Positions 3,244 to 62,308 are shown, counted from the stretch's first letter. The stretch is DNA of 64,000 bases from an uncultured Candidatus Saccharibacteria bacterium (GCA_964643545.1 CAZXTE010000001.1:19101-83100); one strand, 5' to 3'. Numbers and translations are program-made. Notes: generated from the letters alone by a model not told the origin.

Positions 3244-4561
3244 ATGGGTCCACCAACCGCCTACCAATACTTTGGTAGTAAATTCCATGTTCTTCCATCG
3301 TTACTAAATCATATAGGTTCCTGCCATCAAAAACGACGGGGGCTTTAAGAAGCTCTTTGATCCTATTAAAGTCAGGGCTAAAAAACTCTTTCCAGTTAGT
3401 TGCAATGATCAGTGCATCAGCCCCATCAAGCACTTCGTACTCATCCTCGCCATAGCTAAGCCTTGGGTTGTCTGCCATCGCCTTCTTTACGTTTCCCATT
3501 GCTTGTGGGTCAAAAGCAACGACATTAGCACCCTGGCTCGTCAGTGATTCAATTATGGCAAGTGCTGGTGACTCACGTATATCGTCCGTATTGTCCTTAA
3601 AAGCAAGACCCCACAATGCAAATGTCTTACCCTCAACATTGCCCTCAAAATACTCCATAACTTTTTCTGGAACAACTAGTTTCTGGCGATCATTTGCCCC
3701 CATAACAGCCTCTAGGATACTAAAATCAAAACCACAATCTTCTGCTGTCTTGCTTAATGCCAAGACATCCTTTGGGAAACAGCTGCCACCGTAGCCTGGG
3801 CCTGCGTAAAGAAATTGATCACCTATCCGACTATCGGTACCCATCCCTGCCCGCACCATATCGACATCTGCACCAAGCAATGAACACATACCAGCAATCT
3901 GATTTATAAAACTAATCTTTGTTGCCAAGAAAGCATTCGATGCATACTTAATCATTTCTGCAGATGCTTCATCGGTTACGATAAGACTTTCTGGCTTCCT
4001 TCTGACAAATGGAGCATAAAGTTCTTTCATGACCCTGATCGCTCTGTCAGATTTACTACCTATAACCACTCTTTCAGGTGCAAGAAAGTCTGCAACTGCC
4101 TGCCCTTCTCTCAAGAACTCTGGGTTAGAGACTACATCAAAGTCGACTTTGGCGTTAACGGCAATTGCTTGCCTAACCTTTTCCGCAGTTCCCACAGGCA
4201 CTGTACTCTTGTCTACAATTACCGAGTAGCCCGCAAGCTTCTGCCCGATGTTGTCTGCAACGCCTAGAATATACGACAAGTCTGCGGAGCCATCTTCATC
4301 AGAAGGTGTTGGAAGTGCTAAGAAGATTGCTGCAGCGCCAAGAGCCTCTTCCAGATCGGTTGTAAAAGTTAAACGGCCTTCTTTGACGTTACGCTGAAAT
4401 ATATCGCCCAATCCTGGCTCAAAAATTGGCACTTCTCCAGCCTGCATTCTATGGACTTTTTCTCTATCAATATCTACACAGGTGACTTCGTTGCCCATCT
4501 CAGCGAAACAGGTACCCGTCACCAAACCAACGTATCCGGTTCCTACAACAGCAACTTTCAT
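3236..4561 (-). CDS. ugd: UDP-glucose 6-dehydrogenase
   Basis: MKVAVVGTGYVGLVTG NAD-binding N-terminus, a catalytic GGSCFPKD cysteine motif, and full UDPGDH length (441 aa). Confidence 0.9.
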   Translation of the reverse strand: MKVAVVGTGYVGLVTGTCFAEMGNEVTCVDIDREKVHRMQAGEVPIFEPGLGDIFQRNVKEGRLTFTTDLEEALGAAAIFLALPTPSDEDGSADLSYILGVADNIGQKLAGYSVIVDKSTVPVGTAEKVRQAIAVNAKVDFDVVSNPEFLREGQAVADFLAPERVVIGSKSDRAIRVMKELYAPFVRRKPESLIVTDEASAEMIKYASNAFLATKISFINQIAGMCSLLGADVDMVRAGMGTDSRIGDQFLYAGPGYGGSCFPKDVLALSKTAEDCGFDFSILEAVMGANDRQKLVVPEKVMEYFEGNVEGKTFALWGLAFKDNTDDIRESPALAIIESLTSQGANVVAFDPQAMGNVKKAMADNPRLSYGEDEYEVLDGADALIIATNWKEFFSPDFNRIKELLKAPVVFDGRNLYDLVTMEEHGIYYQSIGRRLVDPYV

Positions 4562-4712
4562 ATGTTACCAACATTTATACCAAAGATAGTGGCGGTTATA
4601 AAGATGTAAACGATGAATGTTTGAATTCTACAACAACGCCATAGCACTAGTTACAATTCTGTTTTGTGGGGCACATTATGTTAGGATAAATGTACAATTA
4701 AACTTATCCGCG

Positions 4713-14367: not shown

Positions 14368-14892
14368 ATGGTTAAAAATAAAAAGGTTAGAAAGACTAAG
14401 ATAATTGCACTCACCGCCGCTGTGCTGCTTCTAGCTGGCGGCTCTGCCTTTGCCTACGTAAAAACCAGACATCCAGCAGCCCCGGCGCCTCTGCCGGTCG
14501 GTGGAGTCAACCTTGATAAGCCAACTGCAGAAGAAATAAAAGAAACTGAAGAATTCAAGAAGCAGCAAGCAAAAGCGACGACTAACCCGCCCACCCAAAC
14601 GGCTTCTAACAACAATGCCAACGTTGTCATAACGACCATAACCACAACCGAAGCTAGGGGCTATGTATCGGGCACAGTTGAAGAAGGTGGCACCTGCACG
14701 CTAACGCTCACAAGAGGTACGGCAAAAGTAACAGCGAGCTCAACTGGCATACTCGATGTCAATAAAACGACCTGCTCCCAAATCACAATCGGCCCGGGTC
14801 AACTAAGCTCTGGTGAATGGGATGCAGTACTCAGTTACACTTCTCCAAGCATAAGTGGATCTTCTGCGGTCCAGAAACTAAAGGTACCCTGA
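14368..14892 (+). CDS. secreted/anchored Thr/Ser-rich protein
   Basis: N-terminal K-rich segment plus a hydrophobic signal/anchor (IIALTAAVLLLAGGSAFA), then Pro/Thr-rich linkers (TNPPTQTASNNNANVVITTITTTEA). Confidence 0.55.
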   Translation: MVKNKKVRKTKIIALTAAVLLLAGGSAFAYVKTRHPAAPAPLPVGGVNLDKPTAEEIKETEEFKKQQAKATTNPPTQTASNNNANVVITTITTTEARGYVSGTVEEGGTCTLTLTRGTAKVTASSTGILDVNKTTCSQITIGPGQLSSGEWDAVLSYTSPSISGSSAVQKLKVP

Positions 14893-14895
14893 GCT

Positions 14896-16560
14896 ATGTT
14901 GAGACCATTAAAGAGATTTGGTGCATTTATCAGCTTGCTAACCGCAGCGGTACTAATCGTGTTTGGACTTCAGCCAGCCTACGCAGCATCTGGCAACACC
15001 TTCAAAGCTGATCGTATTATTGATGACGCCATATTTTTTAACACAGCCCAGTTGTCCGTTACAGACATACAGAATTTCCTAAATAGTAAGGTCCCAACGT
15101 GCGACACCAATCATACCGGCAGCGGAAGCAACCAACCGCCGTTTACCTGTCTCAAGGACTACTCACAAACCATCAGCGATAGGGCGGCAGACCAGTATTG
15201 TACTGGTGCCGTAAGCGCTGGCACAAAGTCGTCGGCACAGATTATTAAAGATGTCGCAAATGCCTGTGGAATCAATGCTGCTGTACTAATAGTATTGCTC
15301 CAAAAAGAACAGTCCTTAATTACTGATACGTGGCCATGGGCATCACAGTACGAAAAAGCTACCGGTTACTATTGCCCCGATGACCCATCTAGGCCGGGCT
15401 GGTGTGACCCGGAATATGCAGGCTTTTTCAACCAAGTGTGGTATGCTGCCAGACAATTCCAGAGGTACGTGAAACAGCCGGGTTCTTTTAACTTTGCTGT
15501 TGGAAGAGCAAGCAGTGTACTCTTCCAGGCAAACCGCCCTAGTTGTGGTGGCACAACCCTTACTATGCAAACCCGAGCAACCGCAGCACTTTACAACTAT
15601 ACACCGTACCAGCCTAGTCAGGCTGCTCTAGACTATCTCTACGGCGTAGCCCCTGGTGACCCTAACACACCCGGCACGCCAGCTTATTGTGCAGCTTATG
15701 GGAACAGGAATTTCTGGCGACTCTTCAATGATTGGTTTGGGCCAACTACTTCAGATAACAATACGGATGTTATAAGTTTTGTTCGGCTTAACCATGCATC
15801 AGGGAACGTTGAGGTAGTAGGCTATACCTCAATAAGCGAGTACTCTTACCCCGCTCGGCATAACTTCTCTAGCTATCCCTCCGTACCAGCCGATGGCAAT
15901 GTGATACCCCTATTCTGGCCTAACGGTGACCTCGTATTCGTGAGACTTAATCATGCCTCAGGAAATGTCGAAGTGGTGAGCTATAGTGCGAATAGCGGAT
16001 ATAAACAACTTGTTAATATTGCAATAACTGGCTACCCCTCCGTGCCTGGCGATGGCAATGTTATCCCAATGTTTAAACCTAACGGGGATTTAAGTTTCAT
16101 TCGACTAAACCACAGTTCAGGAAATGTCGAAGTGGTGAGCTATGGCCCCGGAAGTAATTATAGAAGTCTCACCAGAATTCAAAATTCTAGCTATCCCTCC
16201 GTACCAGCCGATGGCAATGTGATACCCCTATTCTGGCCTAACGGTGACCTCGTATTCGTGAGACTTAATCATGCCTCAGGAAATGTCGAAGTGGTGAGCT
16301 ATAGTGCGAATAGCGGATATAAACAACTTGTTAATATTGCAATAACTGGCTACCCCTCCGTGCCTGGCGATGGCAATGTTATCCCAATGTTTAAACCTAA
16401 CGGGGATTTAAGTTTCATTCGACTAAACCACAGTTCAGGAAATGTCGAAGTAGCTACCTACAGCGCCTCTAGCAACTACAAGCAACTTATTGATTTACGC
16501 CTGACTGGTTACCCTAATGTAGCTAATGATGGTGCCGTAATTCCGCTATTCACCAGGTAG
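14896..16560 (+). CDS. secreted protein with a Cys-containing N-terminal domain and five or more ~53-aa beta-propeller/lectin-like repeats
   Basis: Signal peptide (LLTAAVLIVFGLQPAYA). The motif F[VI]RLNH[AS]SGNVEV recurs five times together with DGNVIP[LM]F.PNGDL. The domain between the signal peptide and the repeats contains LLQKEQSLITD. Confidence 0.7.
   Translation: MLRPLKRFGAFISLLTAAVLIVFGLQPAYAASGNTFKADRIIDDAIFFNTAQLSVTDIQNFLNSKVPTCDTNHTGSGSNQPPFTCLKDYSQTISDRAADQYCTGAVSAGTKSSAQIIKDVANACGINAAVLIVLLQKEQSLITDTWPWASQYEKATGYYCPDDPSRPGWCDPEYAGFFNQVWYAARQFQRYVKQPGSFNFAVGRASSVLFQANRPSCGGTTLTMQTRATAALYNYTPYQPSQAALDYLYGVAPGDPNTPGTPAYCAAYGNRNFWRLFNDWFGPTTSDNNTDVISFVRLNHASGNVEVVGYTSISEYSYPARHNFSSYPSVPADGNVIPLFWPNGDLVFVRLNHASGNVEVVSYSANSGYKQLVNIAITGYPSVPGDGNVIPMFKPNGDLSFIRLNHSSGNVEVVSYGPGSNYRSLTRIQNSSYPSVPADGNVIPLFWPNGDLVFVRLNHASGNVEVVSYSANSGYKQLVNIAITGYPSVPGDGNVIPMFKPNGDLSFIRLNHSSGNVEVATYSASSNYKQLIDLRLTGYPNVANDGAVIPLFTR
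15871..16451 (+). repeat. perfect direct tandem duplication, 318-bp unit (copy 1 15871-16188; copy 2 16189-16451, 263 bp, 100 % identical)
   Basis: Direct comparison of the two stretches shows identity at every base until 16452. The duplication is in-frame (106 aa) inside the repeat protein gene. Confidence 0.9.
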
Positions 16561-17853
16561 TTAGTTCTTCTTCAGGCACGTTTTCCACGCTTCGTCGGGA
16601 TTTATATCAAAGCAATATTGTTGCCCAGGACGTAAGGTCGAGAACTCGTTAGCTTGGCCTCTGAAGTTAAACTTCTTCAACTCTTTTACTCTAAAGTAGA
16701 ATGGGAAAAATAGCACGTATAAAGCCACCAAAGCTGAGGCAATCTTGCCCATGTTATTCCTGGTAAGTGCCGCAAAGTAGACCAGTATCAGCAGCCAGCA
16801 GAAGATTGGGATGAAAAAGTATCGTGCGCCGAAGGAATTTAGTTGTAACATATCCCAGAACTGCACAATCGGAACAGTTTGAGCTCGTACGAATGTCGAA
16901 GCATAAATAAGAGACCCGAATAATATCACTGCTCGCATATAGATGTTGGCCTTGATGAAGGCGTAGATCGTCATAATAATAGCGAACATACCCAACATAA
17001 ACATCTGGGGCGACCCTGCTATCTCTTTGGTGATTATTTTCTCGCCTGCGACTGGCAAAGCAAAGAACCTCATACCGGTAATCTTAATCGGTTTACTATA
17101 GTTATTTATTAGTTCTCTTTTCTGAGATACCAGACTGGCAGTTCTTTGTTGGGGGGCCTGTACGTAGACAGCTATCTGAATGAGCGCACAAGCAACTATA
17201 GCAGCAGCCTTAATCCAGTGCATTCTATTTTTGCTCTTTTGAGCAGTAATTAAGTATGCAGCCGTTAGTGCTAGGAAGGGAGCAAACGGCCCACTCAACC
17301 CAGACACAATAAGCACAGTAATATCAAATACCAACCATTTCTTCTGCGTTTTTGGGCCCCTAACTAGTACCAAAATTGCGGCAGCGGCCAAGAACCAAAT
17401 AGTATTTGTAAAATTTCCATAAATCTCAGCAATGCCCGGAATAAGTAGGTATAGAAAAGTGAATGTCATCTTTGATCGCACACTGAATTTTTTTATAAGG
17501 GTGCTATCCGACCAGAATATAAACAATGGTAGGACCATGACCAGAATGGCCACTAAATTTGCCGCCGCTGGGGCGAATCTTAGGGGTACCAACAGCAGCG
17601 GTAGAGCTACCAATCGAGGGAAGAAGGGCAAGATTCCAGAATAAGTCTTGAAGATACTGTAGCCGCCACGCATATAGGCATCTCTATAAAATACGGCGAA
17701 GTCTTCTGCCCAAAACTGAGCATTAAAAAGCAGCTCCGGCCTTCGTAATACGATTACGCCAACGCCAATCAAACACACTACTACCGCTTTTTTCATATCT
17801 GAAAGTACGACAAATTTACGCCAAATGTTAGCTGCCAGCGACTTTATTTCCAT
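16561..17853 (-). CDS. polytopic membrane protein, paralog B (same family as 11440..12681)
   Basis: 430 aa. It shares N- and C-terminal signatures with paralog A. Confidence 0.6.
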   Translation of the reverse strand: MEIKSLAANIWRKFVVLSDMKKAVVVCLIGVGVIVLRRPELLFNAQFWAEDFAVFYRDAYMRGGYSIFKTYSGILPFFPRLVALPLLLVPLRFAPAAANLVAILVMVLPLFIFWSDSTLIKKFSVRSKMTFTFLYLLIPGIAEIYGNFTNTIWFLAAAAILVLVRGPKTQKKWLVFDITVLIVSGLSGPFAPFLALTAAYLITAQKSKNRMHWIKAAAIVACALIQIAVYVQAPQQRTASLVSQKRELINNYSKPIKITGMRFFALPVAGEKIITKEIAGSPQMFMLGMFAIIMTIYAFIKANIYMRAVILFGSLIYASTFVRAQTVPIVQFWDMLQLNSFGARYFFIPIFCWLLILVYFAALTRNNMGKIASALVALYVLFFPFYFRVKELKKFNFRGQANEFSTLRPGQQYCFDINPDEAWKTCLKKN

Positions 17854-17857
17854 ATTC

Positions 17858-19756
17858 CTATTTTAATCTAGCATTAGCGATGTCACGACGAAACTCTGGG
17901 TGATAAAACGGGTCATCTTTAATGAGAGTGCCCCACTTATTTAACATAAGCTTTATCTCTTTATCGAACAGTTCTAGGTCGCGTTGCTTAGAACCAGGCT
18001 GGCCAATAGAGACTGACTCGTGGTGAAACAGATTTACGTGCGGCAGGTACACATTCCTATAACCTTTATCGTATAGCTTTAAACAGAAGTCAACATCGTT
18101 AAAGGCAATCTTAAAGATGGGGTCGAATCCATTAACTTTATTGAACTTGGAGACACCAACCATCACACAGGCTGCAGTTACAGCTGTGAAGTTCCGCGTG
18201 CCACCGACATATAAATTTTGAATGGGGCTCTGGGGTGGTTTATCTATATAAGCCGGGAAGAAATGCCCGGCTATGCCTGGGGTGCCATCCTGGCCACCAA
18301 CACCAAGGATAATGCCTGCATGCTGCAGCCTCTTGTCTGGATAATATAGTTTGCAGCCCACTGCACCAACGTCATCTTGTTGGCTGTAGGCAACCATCCC
18401 TTGGATCCAATCCGGAGATATGACCTCAGTGTCATTGTTGAGGAATAGTAGCTGTGAACCACTTGAGTTATCCGCTCCTAGATTGCAGGCTGCGGCAAAG
18501 TTGAACGGCTTTTCCCACTTCACCACCCTCAGGCCTTTTCCGAGCGATTTGTACCTTTTGTACAGATCCCACACTTTGTCGTCTGTACTGCCCGTGTCTA
18601 CTATTACTACTTCGTAATTATTATAGGTTGTTTTTTCTTTAATTGACCTTAAGCAACGCTCAATATAACCAAATTGATCTTTGGTTGGGATAACGATACT
18701 TACTAACGGATTATCACTTTCATACGCAACCCTCCACATAGAGTATGGAATTTGCCAAGAAATCTCGGCTTTCATGTTACGAGCCTTGACATCATCTTGT
18801 AAGGCTTTCTTCTGATTAACATAGGCGTACTCTTTGGAAGCAGGATTTTCAGCAGTCGAATTTTCAGTTTTCCGCCAACTGTAGAGTACCGTGGGTATGT
18901 GCTGAATTTTGTCAGTCTGGCGAGTAACTCGAAGGAATAGGTCCCAGTCTTGAGCACCTTCGTAACCAGGTCGAAAACCGCCAACTTTCTCAACTAACGA
19001 ACGTCTAATGACCGCAAAGTGAGTTATGTAATTGATTGATCGTAAAAATTCAAAACTCCAATCTGGTTTAAAGAAGGCATCTTCATGCACCTTGCTTTGT
19101 GAATCTATCTTGTCTTCGTCGCTATAAACAAGGTCGGCTTTTTTTTCATTAATAACAGTCGCTGCGTGGAATAAAGCATTTGGCCATAGTACATCATCGT
19201 GATCGAGCAGAGCTATAAATTCACCACTTGCTAGCTTTAATGCTGAGTTTGTGGCATGACAGATATGACCGTTTTCTTGGCGTATGGTGTACTTTATTCT
19301 GGGTTCTTTTTGGGCGTAAGCCTGAATCGCTCCAATTACTTTTTTATCGGTCGAGGCATCATCGGCAATGCAAAGCTCCCAGTTATCGTAAGTCTGGGCT
19401 ATAACGGACTCAATGCACTCTTTTAGGTGCTGAATGTTAGGATTGTAGGTTGGCACTAATACACTGATTAGAGGGCGAGATTTGAAATTCTTTTGGTTTT
19501 TCACTTGCTGCTTCAAAATACCACCCGTTGGGTAATTCTTTTTAAACCACTGTCTGTATTCTTTGTCGATTTGAATCTTTGTGTGAGCCGCTAGGGTTAA
19601 TGAATCTATGCGCGAAATGAGTTTTTTTGCACCCGGTAGACGCCGGGTATAACGATTAATAAAGATGTGTTTGCCGAAGATCTTGATGTGCAGAATTCGG
19701 ATTATAATTGGATATATCCCCTGCTTTACTTTCTTTACTATAGACGTCATTTTCAC
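17858..19756 (-). CDS. tandem double GT2 glycosyltransferase (ABC-pathway polymerising GT candidate)
   Basis: Two GT2 cores: ISVLVPTYNP...CIADDASTD and VSIVIPTKDQ...VIVDTGSTDD, with a DxD (DHDD). Confidence 0.8.
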   Translation of the reverse strand: MKMTSIVKKVKQGIYPIIIRILHIKIFGKHIFINRYTRRLPGAKKLISRIDSLTLAAHTKIQIDKEYRQWFKKNYPTGGILKQQVKNQKNFKSRPLISVLVPTYNPNIQHLKECIESVIAQTYDNWELCIADDASTDKKVIGAIQAYAQKEPRIKYTIRQENGHICHATNSALKLASGEFIALLDHDDVLWPNALFHAATVINEKKADLVYSDEDKIDSQSKVHEDAFFKPDWSFEFLRSINYITHFAVIRRSLVEKVGGFRPGYEGAQDWDLFLRVTRQTDKIQHIPTVLYSWRKTENSTAENPASKEYAYVNQKKALQDDVKARNMKAEISWQIPYSMWRVAYESDNPLVSIVIPTKDQFGYIERCLRSIKEKTTYNNYEVVIVDTGSTDDKVWDLYKRYKSLGKGLRVVKWEKPFNFAAACNLGADNSSGSQLLFLNNDTEVISPDWIQGMVAYSQQDDVGAVGCKLYYPDKRLQHAGIILGVGGQDGTPGIAGHFFPAYIDKPPQSPIQNLYVGGTRNFTAVTAACVMVGVSKFNKVNGFDPIFKIAFNDVDFCLKLYDKGYRNVYLPHVNLFHHESVSIGQPGSKQRDLELFDKEIKLMLNKWGTLIKDDPFYHPEFRRDIANARLK

Positions 19757-26875: not shown

Positions 26876-28363
26876 TTGAAAAGTTCTTTTTTGAAGGTGC
26901 GCGTATCGAAAAGTCTGTTCATTGTTATTTCTAGCTCAATTATTTTATCAATCCTGGTTCAACCGCTTATAGCTCTAAAAACCTCTGCGCTGGGCACCTA
27001 CCCTAACGCTTCTATTGCAAACCGAGCCCTCGGCTATACGGGCCAATGGGGCGGTAACGCCTGCAAAGATGTTGGTAGGAGTGGATATACTGGTGGTTAC
27101 CCTGGCGGTCAAACCTACGATGGTCAGTGCCGGGCGTTTGTTAACTGTGTGGTTTGGTCCGTTAGTAATCGTACGCAGTGGTTGGGTGGCGGAGACTACT
27201 TTAGCCCACTCGCAGCCAATGGTCATGAAATCAAAGATATTAATGGTTTAGTAAAAGGTGATGTCATCCAGGTCGGGCAAGGCACGCACACATTCATAAT
27301 TGTTGGTCGTACGGGCGGCAATATATTCAGAGTAGTGGACTCGAACAGCAGGCTAGATGAGGTGGTCCGAACATATGACCGTAAAGTCACCCTCGACAAT
27401 ACAAATCGTGCGTTTCGATTAGGTCTGGCTGATGGGCCTCAACCAACTGTGAACGGAGGGGTCGGGACAAGATTGCTCGGTGATGTAAATGGAGATGGGC
27501 TAGACGATGCGATCGTTATGTTTAAAGACACAGGGACAGCAATGGTCGCTCTTTCGCAAGGCAGCAGCTTCTCTAACCCTTCCGCCTGGAGTTATGGCCA
27601 TTCCATGAACGCAAGTAATTACTTTTTGGCCGATGTAAATGGCGATAAAAAGAAGGACTTGGTCGGATTCTTCGCCCAGGACGGGCGCTGGAAAGTTAGC
27701 CTATCTTCTGGGACCGGGTTTTGGTCACCCGTAGAGTGGGCGTATGGGCAGGGTGTTGGTACGAGTAATCAATGGTTAATGGATGCAAATGGTGACGCGA
27801 AGGCCGACATCATAACTCTAGATAAACAAAACGGCGACTGGTATGTAAGCAGCTCATCCGGGAGTGGGTTCTGGCCACCAAAGCGCTGGATTAGTGGCCA
27901 TGGAGTCGGAAGTGACGATCAAGCAGCAGGAGATTTTAACGGGGACGGCAGAGCTGATGTTGCCATTTGGCTTCGGGATGGCTCGTGGTATGTAGCCCTA
28001 TCTACGGGCAGCACGTTCGGCTATCCTGGCCACTGGTCTGCCGGGCAAGGATTAAATAGCAGCCAACGCCTCGTTGGGGATGCAAACGGCGATGGCAGAG
28101 CTGACACAGCATACTTCTACGCCGATACGGGCAGGTGGTACGTATCTACCTCTTCTGGTTCAGGGTTCTGGACACCAACGGAGTGGGCGTATGGGCAGGG
28201 CGTAGGGACCACGGAGCGTTTCTTGGGCACGACCACAAAAGATTCGCTAGCTGACATGGTTACATTTGACAGAAACACGGGAGATTGGTGGGTTAGTGTA
28301 TCGTCTGGATCAGGCTTTTGGCCACCTTCTCGTTGGATCAGTGGTCACGGTAAGGCTTCTTAG
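26876..28363 (+). CDS. secreted CHAP-like amidase/peptidase domain fused to FG-GAP/integrin-alpha-like repeats
   Basis: Signal peptide, then a Cys...His pair (GQCRAFVNCVVW ... GTHTFIIVG), then seven D-x-N-G-D-G/K-x-x-D loops (DVNGDGLDD, DVNGDKKKD, DANGDAKAD, DFNGDGRAD, DANGDGRAD...). Confidence 0.65.
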   Translation: MKSSFLKVRVSKSLFIVISSSIILSILVQPLIALKTSALGTYPNASIANRALGYTGQWGGNACKDVGRSGYTGGYPGGQTYDGQCRAFVNCVVWSVSNRTQWLGGGDYFSPLAANGHEIKDINGLVKGDVIQVGQGTHTFIIVGRTGGNIFRVVDSNSRLDEVVRTYDRKVTLDNTNRAFRLGLADGPQPTVNGGVGTRLLGDVNGDGLDDAIVMFKDTGTAMVALSQGSSFSNPSAWSYGHSMNASNYFLADVNGDKKKDLVGFFAQDGRWKVSLSSGTGFWSPVEWAYGQGVGTSNQWLMDANGDAKADIITLDKQNGDWYVSSSSGSGFWPPKRWISGHGVGSDDQAAGDFNGDGRADVAIWLRDGSWYVALSTGSTFGYPGHWSAGQGLNSSQRLVGDANGDGRADTAYFYADTGRWYVSTSSGSGFWTPTEWAYGQGVGTTERFLGTTTKDSLADMVTFDRNTGDWWVSVSSGSGFWPPSRWISGHGKAS

Positions 28364-54829: not shown

Positions 54830-54919
<90 letters not shown>

Positions 54920-54940
54920 AGACTAGCTTTTCGTGTTACG

Positions 54941-55033
54941 TGGCGGAGGAGGAGGGATTCGAACCCTCGCGGGAGATTGCTCCCCCCTAACGATTTAGCA
55001 AACCGTCCCCTTCAGCCTCTTGGGTACTCCTCC
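54941..55033 (-). tRNA. tRNA-Ser (anticodon GCU), type II
   Basis: Minus-strand read: GGAGGAG acceptor, anticodon arm ACGGT-TTGCTAA-ATCGT, long variable arm, GAGGGTTCGAATCCCTC T-arm, and CCA. Confidence 0.85.
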
Positions 55034-55740: not shown

Positions 55741-55817
55741 GCACCCGTAGCTCAGCTGGATAGAGCGTTGGCTTGCGGAGCCAAAGGTCGTAGGTTCGAA
55801 TCCTGTCGGGTGTACCA
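55741..55817 (+). tRNA. tRNA-Arg (anticodon read as GCG), 77 nt with encoded CCA
   Basis: GCACCCG acceptor, GCTCAGCTGGATAGAGC D-arm (Arg-like, A20), anticodon arm TTGGC-TTGCGGA-GCCAA, GTAGGTTCGAATCCTGT T-arm, and CGGGTGT-A-CCA. It is closely similar to E. coli tRNA-Arg(ACG) outside the anticodon. Confidence 0.8.
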
Positions 55818-62218: not shown

Positions 62219-62308
62219 GGAGAGGTGTCCGAGTGGTTGAAGGAGCTGCTCTCGAAAAGCAGTATGCCGGCAACGGTATCGAGGGTTCGAATCCCTCTCT
62301 CTCCGCCA
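62219..62308 (+). tRNA. tRNA-Ser (anticodon CGA), type II
   Basis: GGAGAGG acceptor, TCCGAGTGGTTGAAGGA D-arm, anticodon arm CTGCT-CTCGAAA-AGCAG, long variable arm, GAGGGTTCGAATCCCTC, and CCA. Confidence 0.85.

What the first reader, a model, noticed from the sequence alone, without database searches (positions are those of the whole stretch)
15871..16451. Perfect 318-bp in-frame tandem duplication inside the secreted repeat-protein gene
Positions 15871-16133 and 16189-16451 are identical at all 263 compared bases. The period is exactly 318 bp (106 aa, two propeller-like blades). Such perfect identity points to a very recent duplication, ongoing slipped-strand or recombinational length variation of a surface protein, or an assembly collapse or expansion. 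True copy number may differ in the population.
Basis: seen in the sequence. Interest (0 to 1): 0.6.

Follow-up and report, generated by a model that had tools for sequence, protein, structure and literature searches.

The report
Blade homogenisation in a Saccharibacteria propeller gene
Two stretches of 266 identical bases sit 318 bases apart inside a secreted five-blade propeller gene of a Saccharibacteria bacterium, most likely because one pair of blades was recently copied over another (gene conversion), which is a familiar way for repeat genes to evolve.

Summary
Bases 15868-16133 equal 16186-16451 exactly: 266 bp, offset 318, in frame.

The repeat lies in ORF 14896-16560 (554 aa). The protein has a signal peptide, an unannotated N-domain that may be lysozyme-like, and five 53-aa repeats predicted as four-stranded beta-propeller blades.

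This is not a fresh tandem duplication.
- The layout is A(266)-B(52)-A(266), and the 52-bp spacer is about 40% identical to its counterparts.
- The closest relative (73% aa) also has five repeats, and its R1, R3 and R5 match this gene's R1, R3 and R5 by position.
- So five blades are ancestral, and R2 and R4 plus adjoining parts were homogenised without a change in copy number.

Independently assembled homologues show the same behaviour.
- They carry exact tracts of 82-316 bp at offsets 159, 318 and 477.
- They also carry older tracts of 84-98% identity, against a background of 55-67%.
- Near-identical alleles differ by clean one-repeat indels.

Recurrent intragenic recombination is therefore real in this family. 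A short-read assembly artefact at this particular locus cannot be excluded without reads. It is a new example of a known process, of modest interest.

The parts
14896..16560 (+). Host gene of 554 aa: signal peptide, N-terminal domain and five 53-aa blade repeats. It is identical to database protein P0001.
   Evidence: ORF list; translation; 100% hit to P0001, an NCBI entry on a 179-kb contig.
14896..14985 (+). Predicted Sec signal peptide, residues 1-30: basic n-region, hydrophobic core, and AYA|AS cleavage motif.
   Evidence: Read by eye from the translation. This is an inference; no signal-peptide predictor was available.
14986..15765 (+). N-terminal domain with no Pfam or NCBIfam family. 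It has an invariant Glu138 in the motif LLQKEQSL and conserved cysteines. It is possibly a lysozyme-like muramidase or glucosaminidase fold.
   Evidence: No family hit. Invariant columns. AF2 model with pLDDT 92.7. Foldseek PDB hits are weak (E 0.35-8) but dominated by GH73/GH23 peptidoglycan hydrolases.
15766..15924 (+). Repeat/blade R1. It is positionally orthologous to R1 of the homologues.
   Evidence: Unit segmentation and identity matrix; NJ tree of units.
15925..16083 (+). Repeat/blade R2. It is identical to R4 over all 159 bp.
16084..16242 (+). Repeat/blade R3. Its head and tail lie inside the identical tracts. Its core is unique and orthologous to R3 of P0002.
16243..16401 (+). Repeat/blade R4, identical to R2. 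The shared R2/R4 unit is closest to R4 of P0002 (77% aa, against 67% for P0002 R2).
16402..16557 (+). Repeat/blade R5, the C-terminal unit. Its last strand probably closes the ring onto blade 1. It is positionally orthologous to R5 of the homologues.
   Evidence: Ring closure is an inference from strand order.
15868..16133 (+). Copy 1 of the exact 266-bp tract: R1 tail (57 bp), all of R2 (159 bp) and R3 head (50 bp).
16134..16185 (+). Unique 52-bp spacer, the variable core of R3. It is 40% identical to the sequence 318 bp downstream.
16186..16451 (+). Copy 2 of the exact 266-bp tract: R3 tail, all of R4 and R5 head.

Best explanation
This is a recent intragenic gene conversion inside an ancestrally five-bladed propeller gene.

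The blades alternate between two types. One junction type reads ...FWPNG-DLVF... and the other ...FKPNG-DLSF.... Blades two units (318 bp) apart therefore share the best homology.

The proposed event is a non-reciprocal exchange. It could be RecA-mediated sister-strand recombination, or replication template switching with a return switch. It was anchored in the conserved tails of R1 and R3 and the conserved heads of R3 and R5. It copied one two-blade stretch over the other, making R2 identical to R4 without changing the number of blades.

The donor was probably the R4 side, but this is tentative.

The two 266-bp direct repeats are now themselves a substrate for in-frame loss or gain of 318 bp (two blades).

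Shown: the identity, the layout, the ancestral five-unit array, and the same process in relatives.

Inferred: the molecular mechanism, the direction, and the protein's role. That role would be a secreted cell-wall-directed enzyme whose propeller acts as the binding module.
For: 1. The layout is A(266)-B(52)-A(266), with flanks and spacer at about 36-40% identity. A conversion tract fits this layout and a fresh tandem duplication does not.

2. Positional orthology with the closest homologue P0002 (73% aa): R1-R1 79%, R3-R3 70%, R5-R5 83%. The R2=R4 unit matches P0002 R4 at 77% and P0002 R2 at 67%. In the NJ tree of units, R1 and R5 cluster by position across six proteins.

3. Of about 45 repeat-bearing homologues, most have 5 repeats and none has more.

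4. Independent assemblies of homologues carry exact DNA tracts at several offsets:
- L035: 316 bp at offset 318
- L003: 170 bp at offset 477, between non-adjacent repeats
- L037: 133 bp at offset 159
- L038: 104 bp at offset 159
- L043: 96 bp and 91 bp
- L039: 88 bp
- L047: 82 bp

5. Tracts of intermediate age also exist:
- L042: 91 bp with 2 mismatches, and 101 bp with 5
- L049: 107 bp with 10
- L045 and L046: 93 bp with 10
- L041: 119 bp with 16
These form a continuum from 100% down to about 84%, against a background of 55-67%. Assembler collapse alone would not produce that continuum.

6. The recombination machinery is visibly at work in relatives. L040 equals L039 minus exactly 159 bp. The junction lies in a 30-bp direct repeat, and only 5 other differences occur in 1479 bp.
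Against: - No reads are available, and the source record could not be identified.
- All tracts longer than about 100 bp are perfectly exact, here and in homologues. Short-read assemblers can produce that by collapsing similar parallel paths.
- A 266-bp exact repeat exceeds common k-mer and read lengths, so its resolution in a short-read assembly depends on paired-end inference.
- The direction of conversion is ambiguous. The unit core looks like R4, while the leading tail looks more like P0002 R1 than R3 by eye.
- No second assembly of this species exists in the databases searched. The nearest protein is 73% identical.
Confidence: 0.62

Rival explanations
1. The identity is a short-read assembly artefact. 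The true R2 and R4 regions are similar but not identical. The assembler merged them as a bulge and threaded the same path twice. Alternatively, it traversed an A-B loop the wrong number of times, so that the perfect identity or the copy number is not real.
For: - The 266-bp tract is longer than typical k-mers and reads.
- All long tracts in homologues are also exactly perfect, with sharp edges.
- Many homologue contigs are short or end in or near the repeats. L001 ends inside the last repeat, and several contigs are only 1.7-4.3 kb. These arrays clearly trouble assemblers.
- The source assembly and its read type are unknown.
Against: - Even under this reading, the true copies would have to be far more alike than the 55-67% background for a collapse to happen. 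A recent homogenisation would still be needed.
- Exact tracts shorter than common maximum k-mers (82-133 bp) occur in several independent assemblies.
- Imperfect tracts of 84-98% identity also occur. An assembler would not create those.
- The gene lies inside a 179-kb contig rather than at a break.
- No homologue has more than five repeats, which argues against a missed extra loop.
Confidence: 0.22
2. This is a genuine recent tandem duplication that added two blades, taking a three-repeat gene to five. This is what the first reader proposed.
For: - The offset is an exact multiple of the repeat unit and is in frame.
- Three-repeat relatives exist, for example P0027 at 439 aa.
- Unequal recombination clearly changes repeat number in this family.
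Against: - A 318-bp tandem duplication predicts at least 318 identical bases in each copy. Only 266 are identical, and the remaining 52 bp are about 40% identical.
- The unique R3 core is orthologous to R3 of a homologue that diverged long ago. It therefore predates the event.
- The closest relatives already have five units.
Confidence: 0.06
3. This is programmed or selected blade shuffling. Conversion between blades would be an adaptive way to vary or tune the ligand-binding surface of a host-directed enzyme of an epibiotic bacterium, rather than a neutral by-product of repeated DNA.
For: - Homogenisation recurs in many lineages and at different offsets.
- All long tracts are young. This would fit rapid turnover.
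- The same N-domain is combined with many alternative lectin-like or wall-binding C-terminal modules, which suggests pressure on the targeting function.
Against: - No dedicated machinery was seen: no recombinase, silent cassette or template repeat near the gene, and no other copy in the window.
- Positional orthology of R1, R3 and R5 over large distances shows that most blades are stably maintained.
- The pattern is what ordinary homology-dependent recombination produces.
Confidence: 0.1

Closest known systems
Concerted evolution (intragenic gene conversion and unequal recombination) of tandem repeats in bacterial surface and secreted proteins
   Same: - Repeats in one gene are more alike than orthologous repeats between lineages.
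- Identity tracts are exact and sharply bounded, and anchored in conserved parts of the repeat.
- Close alleles differ by in-frame gain or loss of whole units.
   Different: - The units here are blades of a closed propeller rather than an open, extended stalk, so copy number appears capped at five.
- The event preserved the number of units.
- The comparison with classic surface-protein cases rests on general knowledge. It was not tested here.
Beta-propellers with near-identical blades, explained by recent amplification from single blades (Pereira and Lupas 2022, PMC9218822; Afanasieva et al. 2019, PMC6805158)
   Same: - Propeller blades are identical or nearly so at the nucleotide level.
- The process is ongoing in bacterial lineages.
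- Relatives with fewer blades exist (2-4 repeats), and these might need to oligomerise.
   Different: - Those cases are whole propellers amplified from one blade. Here only a two-blade stretch of an otherwise differentiated, positionally conserved five-blade array is homogenised.
- This points to conversion rather than re-amplification.
- The 2022 paper does not use the terms 'gene conversion', 'concerted' or 'recombination'.
VCBS / FG-GAP / tachylectin-2 supercluster of propellers (Pereira and Lupas 2021, PMC8023676)
   Same: - Blades are about 53-58 aa with four strands.
- Paralogues with the same N-domain carry Pfam FG-GAP and FG-GAP_3 repeats in the same position.
- A profile-profile comparison of the two C-terminal domains gives 82.7% probability, E 9.5e-6.
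- The five-blade count matches tachylectin-2 (from the literature).
   Different: - The cation-binding DxDxDG loop that marks the group (PMC9218822) is missing. The alignment shows a 4-residue gap at 'GD----L'.
- No Pfam FG-GAP or VCBS model matches this protein.
Modular peptidoglycan hydrolases: a catalytic domain plus a cell-wall-binding repeat module
   Same: - The protein has a signal peptide, an N-domain with an invariant Glu, and weak fold matches to GH73/GH23 enzymes.
- The same 53-aa repeat module follows CHAP domains in other proteins (P0042, P0079).
- The N-domain is also fused to ChW, LGFP, B_lectin and Tectonin modules.
   Different: - No sequence model and no significant structural match establishes the N-domain as a lysozyme-family member. 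Foldseek E-values are at least 0.35.
- Neither activity nor ligand is known.

Membership tests
Fresh tandem duplication | Two adjacent complete copies, with identity spanning at least one full period (318 bp) | tested here: not met
   Only 266 of 318 positions are identical. The 52-bp remainder is 40% identical. TRF reports 1.8 copies.
Fresh tandem duplication | Extra units compared with close orthologues | tested here: not met
   P0002, P0003 and P0004 (68-73% aa) also have five units. No homologue has more than five.
Intragenic gene conversion / concerted evolution | Copy number unchanged, and a tract of identity bounded by diverged paralogous sequence on both sides | tested here: met
Intragenic gene conversion / concerted evolution | Phylogenetic incongruence: converted units cluster within the genome while unconverted units cluster by position across genomes | tested here: met
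   In the NJ tree of units, R1 and R5 form positional clades, Q_R3 pairs with P0002_R3, and Q_R2 and Q_R4 are identical and sister to P0002_R4. The identity matrix agrees.
Intragenic gene conversion / concerted evolution | Tracts of different ages in related genes | tested here: met
   Exact tracts of 82-316 bp, and imperfect tracts of 84-98% identity, in 12 or more independent loci.
Intragenic gene conversion / concerted evolution | Confirmation in reads or a population that the assembled sequence is real | not testable with these tools
   No reads are available. The source record was not retrievable, and there is no other assembly of the species.
Beta-propeller fold | Repeated four-stranded antiparallel blades | tested here: met
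   AF2 predicts 20 strands in five groups of four over residues 292-553, with pLDDT mostly above 90. All top Foldseek PDB hits are propellers, including TolB and the CV39L lectin, with E down to 5e-7.
Beta-propeller fold | Closed ring with N/C-terminal 'velcro' strand exchange | not testable with these tools
Strand order is compatible with closure, because the C-terminal VIPLFTR strand has no following partner and R1 lacks a preceding one.
VCBS / FG-GAP superfamily | Cation-binding DxDxDG motif in the blades | tested here: not met
   The blades read ...PNGDL.... The loop is absent, with a 4-residue gap against FG-GAP-bearing paralogues. The motif definition comes from PMC9218822.
VCBS / FG-GAP superfamily | Match to the Pfam FG-GAP, FG-GAP_3 or VCBS models | tested here: not met
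   There is no such hit at E <= 0.01.
VCBS / FG-GAP superfamily | Profile-level homology to bona fide members | tested here: inconclusive
   hhalign against the C-terminal domains of P0043, P0063, P0080 and P0040 gives probability 82.7% and E 9.5e-6 over 167 columns. P0043 matches the Pfam FG-GAP and FG-GAP_3 models.
Lysozyme-like peptidoglycan hydrolases (GH23/GH73) - N-domain | Lysozyme-like fold with a catalytic Glu | tested here: inconclusive
Lysozyme-like peptidoglycan hydrolases (GH23/GH73) - N-domain | Sequence-model membership | tested here: not met
   No Pfam, NCBIfam or PDB sequence hit.
Simple-sequence contingency locus (phase variation) | Short-unit repeat whose slippage shifts the frame or promoter spacing | tested here: not met
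   The unit is 159 or 318 bp and always in frame. No short tandem repeat lies in or upstream of the gene.

The most novel reading that the evidence does not exclude
Blade-to-blade conversion and blade gain or loss in this family might be a fast, selected way for Saccharibacteria to re-tune the ligand specificity of a secreted wall-directed enzyme. These bacteria are epibionts that must recognise host cell surfaces. Under this reading, converted alleles arise constantly and turn over quickly. That would explain why all long tracts are perfectly young while blade positions stay orthologous over long times.
Probability: 0.1. Interest if true: 0.6.

Novelty: new member of a known kind. Interest (0 to 1): 0.3.

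Why it matters
If real, this is a clean, datable example of partial gene conversion inside a closed beta-propeller. Highly similar blades in propellers are usually read as fresh amplification from a single blade. The locus shows that homogenisation without any change in blade number also happens. The converted gene now carries a 266-bp direct repeat, which should make in-frame two-blade loss frequent.

For annotation, the result flags a large unnamed Saccharibacteria protein family. Its N-domain may be lysozyme-like, and it is fused to interchangeable propeller, lectin or wall-binding modules. Such proteins may act on the host or the cell's own envelope.

For assembly users, the case is a reminder that repeat number and exact repeat identity in such genes need long-read confirmation.

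None of this overturns current understanding.

Tried and rejected
**Dead ends**
- The exact protein P0001 has no contig on record, and its cluster entry carries no accession or name. The source assembly and read technology therefore stay unknown.
- Pfam and NCBIfam give only sub-threshold noise for the gene: PrpF, Phage_tudor and TiaS.
- Profile searches of PDB sequences found nothing meaningful for either the whole protein or the N-domain.
- DNA for P0003 could not be fetched.

**Negative checks**
- There is no paralogue or other copy of the tract elsewhere in the window, so an external donor within 64 kb is excluded.
- L039 and L040 differ by 5 clustered mismatches. I looked for a donor repeat for them within the gene and found none. 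They are not evidence of a micro-conversion.

**Readings rejected**
- A diversity-generating retroelement or a cassette system. There is no template repeat, and the copies are identical rather than adenine-mutated.
- Selection on the protein as the cause of the identity. All synonymous sites are identical as well.
- An RNA or opposite-strand feature. No ORF of 100 aa or more lies on the minus strand, and there is no inverted repeat.

Full report
**1. The observation**

Tandem Repeats Finder reports an array at 15868-16451 with period 318, 1.8 copies, 100% matches and no indels. It lies on top of a weaker 159-bp periodicity with 68% matches.

A base-by-base comparison at offset 318 gives one uninterrupted run.

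Identity collapses at both ends.
- The 52 bp between the copies (16134-16185) are 40% identical to the sequence 318 bp downstream.
- The sequence just upstream of copy 1 is about 36-40% identical to its counterpart.

The first 200 bases of the tract occur twice in the window, against 0.00 expected in shuffles. It is the only long exact repeat in the 64 kb.

**2. The gene**

The tract lies in frame in ORF 14896-16560 (+), 554 aa. The protein begins with what reads as a Sec signal peptide (MLRPLKRF...LQPAYA|AS; inference from sequence).

A domain of about 260 aa follows, and then five 53-aa (159-bp) units, R1 to R5.
- Copy 1 covers the tail of R1, all of R2 and the head of R3.
- Copy 2 covers the tail of R3, all of R4 and the head of R5.
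- The unique spacer is the variable core of R3.

Neither Pfam nor NCBIfam recognises the protein, and no solved structure is related by sequence.

The best database hits are hypothetical proteins from Candidatus Saccharibacteria / Patescibacteria metagenome-assembled genomes. The query itself is a singleton in the database, and the next relative is 73% identical.

**3. Fold and likely role**

*The repeats.* An AlphaFold2 model built on 27 homologues predicts residues 292-553 with pLDDT mostly above 90. It shows 20 beta-strands, four per repeat. Foldseek against the PDB returns only beta-propellers, such as TolB and the CV39L lectin. The repeats are therefore propeller blades, five in all. Strand order is compatible with the usual N/C-terminal closure, but I could not inspect coordinates.

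*Relationship to FG-GAP.* A profile-profile comparison with the C-terminal domains of paralogues that match Pfam FG-GAP and FG-GAP_3 gives 82.7% probability. The blades here lack the DxDxDG cation loop that marks that superfamily. They are best called FG-GAP/VCBS-like, with membership not established.

*The N-domain.* Modelled alone, it reaches pLDDT 92.7. It has an invariant Glu138 in LLQKEQSL. Its Foldseek hits are individually insignificant (E 0.35-8), but nearly all are peptidoglycan hydrolases of the lysozyme-like superfamily: LytB, AtlE, the C. perfringens autolysin, goose-type lysozyme and lytic transglycosylases.

*Domain combinations.*
- The same N-domain is fused in other Saccharibacteria proteins to ChW, LGFP, B_lectin, Tectonin, FG-GAP and DUF5648 modules.
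- The same 53-aa repeat module follows CHAP domains.

The most economical reading is a secreted, modular, wall-directed enzyme whose propeller is the binding module. This is an inference.

*Gene neighbourhood.* The gene sits among glycosyltransferase and membrane-protein genes. It is preceded by a conserved small membrane-anchored protein.

**4. Duplication or conversion?**

A fresh tandem duplication of a 318-bp unit must leave at least 318 identical bases in each copy. Here the two 266-bp copies are separated by a 52-bp segment that matches neither neighbour.

That segment encodes the R3 core, VSYGPGSNYRSL. It is shared with R3 of the nearest homologue P0002 (VSYGPGSNYKSL).

Unit-by-unit identities between the two proteins are positional:
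- R1-R1: 79%
- R3-R3: 70%
- R5-R5: 83%
- the R2=R4 unit against P0002 R4: 77%
- the R2=R4 unit against P0002 R2: 67%

A neighbour-joining tree of units from six proteins places all R1s together and all R5s together. Q_R3 pairs with P0002_R3, and the identical Q_R2 and Q_R4 are sister to P0002_R4.

Most repeat-bearing homologues have five units and none has more.

The five-unit array therefore predates the event. What happened is homogenisation of one two-blade stretch by another, that is, gene conversion with no net change in length.

The 318-bp offset follows from the alternating blade types (...FWPNG-DLVF... and ...FKPNG-DLSF...). Because of that alternation, blades two apart are the best recombination partners.

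Zero differences in 266 bp puts the divergence of the two copies below about 1% (3/266, 95% bound). Unconverted unit pairs differ by 33-45%.

**5. The same process in relatives**

At the protein level, long internal exact repeats occur in P0008 (105 aa, offset 106), P0012 (58 aa, offset 159), P0024 (44 aa), P0011 (35 aa), P0009 (34 aa) and P0021 (32 aa).

*Exact DNA tracts with sharp edges*:

| Locus | Tract length | Offset |
|---|---|---|
| L035 | 316 bp | 318 |
| L003 | 170 bp | 477 (non-adjacent repeats) |
| L037 | 133 bp | 159 |
| L038 | 104 bp | 159 |
| L043 | 96 bp and 91 bp | 318 and 159 |
| L039 / L040 | 88 bp | 159 |
| L047 | 82 bp | 318 |

The L003 tract joins non-adjacent repeats, which a simple tandem duplication cannot produce.

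*Older, imperfect tracts*:

| Locus | Length / mismatches |
|---|---|
| L042 | 91 bp / 2; 101 bp / 5; 108 bp / 12 |
| L049 | 107 bp / 10 |
| L045 and L046 | 93 bp / 10 |
| L005 | 80 bp / 8 |
| L041 | 119 bp / 16 |
| L002 | 110 bp / 17 |

Identity thus runs as a continuum from 100% to about 84%, above a 55-67% background. That is the signature of recurrent concerted evolution.

*Length change.*
- L040 equals L039 minus exactly 159 bp. The junction lies inside a 30-bp direct repeat, and only five other differences occur in 1479 bp.
- P0004 and P0005 differ in the same way, 5 versus 4 units.
- Forms with 3 repeats (P0027) and 2 repeats exist.

**6. The artefact question**

I could not obtain reads or even the source record.

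A 266-bp exact repeat is longer than usual k-mers and reads. A short-read assembler would have to resolve an A-B-A loop from paired ends. It could also have merged two similar but non-identical paths.

Two observations keep this open.
- All long tracts seen are perfectly exact.
- Homologue contigs often break at these genes.

Four points argue against a pure artefact.
- Sub-k-mer exact tracts and imperfect tracts occur in many independent assemblies.
- A collapse would need the true copies to be far more alike than background anyway.
- The gene lies inside a 179-kb contig.
- Repeat number is capped at five across the family.

My estimates are about 0.6 for real conversion, about 0.2 for artefactual perfection or miscount, and well under 0.1 for a net duplication.

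**7. Comparison with what is known, and verdict**

Concerted evolution of intragenic repeats is a well-known process. Propellers with near-identical blades have been described and explained as repeated amplification from single blades (PMC9218822, PMC6805158).

This locus differs in two ways. Only part of a differentiated, positionally conserved five-blade array is homogenised, and blade number is preserved. It is a new member of a known kind.

The host protein family is unnamed and may deserve description, but that goes beyond the finding. Interest is modest at 0.3.

The most novel reading still open is selected blade shuffling that tunes host recognition in an epibiont. It has no specific support (probability about 0.1).

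Noticed in passing
window 14368-14892 (+): A 174-aa protein with an N-terminal membrane anchor ends 4 bp before the repeat gene starts. Homologues at 30-63% identity sit immediately upstream of the orthologous gene in L035, L036, L038 and L039. It looks like a conserved two-gene unit of unknown function, with no Pfam or NCBIfam family.
   Followed up: partly
window 16561-17853 (-) and 17858-19756 (-): A convergent 430-aa protein with no Pfam family abuts the stop codon of the repeat gene. From the weak NCBIfam hit it is probably a membrane protein. It is 51% identical to the neighbour of P0002 in L036. A 632-aa family-2 glycosyltransferase follows. The locus looks like a cell-envelope glycan region, and homologue loci also carry PMT_2, GT1/GT4, GT2 and methyltransferase genes.
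   Followed up: partly
window 14986-15765 (N-domain of the same gene) and proteins P0040-P0120: The N-domain has no Pfam model, yet it matched over 3000 database proteins, mostly Saccharibacteria. These carry many different C-terminal modules: FG-GAP, ChW, LGFP, B_lectin, Tectonin, DUF5648 and Ig-like. There is an invariant Glu and several conserved Cys. This may be an undescribed lysozyme-like family.
   Followed up: partly
L039 2171-2200 and L040 (P0025 / P0030): Two JGI contigs carry near-identical alleles that differ by a clean 159-bp (one blade) indel at a 30-bp direct repeat. They also differ at five positions clustered in 23 bp, and no donor for those five was found within the gene.
   Followed up: yes
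window 27704-27762 and 28151-28209 (inside ORF 26876-28363, +): A 59-nt segment is repeated 447 bp apart at 80% identity within a 495-aa ORF. This may be another internally repeated protein. It was not examined.
   Followed up: no
window 54833-55033 (-), 55741-55814 (+), 62219-62305 (+): Rfam finds four tRNA genes, two of them adjacent on the minus strand. No other RNA family reaches threshold in the window.
   Followed up: no
L001 (contig DATNAB010000065.1), and the short contigs of P0002, P0003, P0005, P0024 and P0030: Many homologues sit on contigs of only 1.7-4.3 kb. One contig ends inside the last repeat. These repeat arrays appear to fragment short-read assemblies routinely, so repeat counts in database entries should be treated with care.
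   Followed up: partly
L003 3916-4085 versus 4393-4562 (P0012): A 170-bp exact tract joins repeats three units apart (offset 477), with unrelated sequence in between. This is a clear case of conversion between non-adjacent blades in an independently assembled Saccharibacteria genome, on a 221-kb contig.
   Followed up: yes
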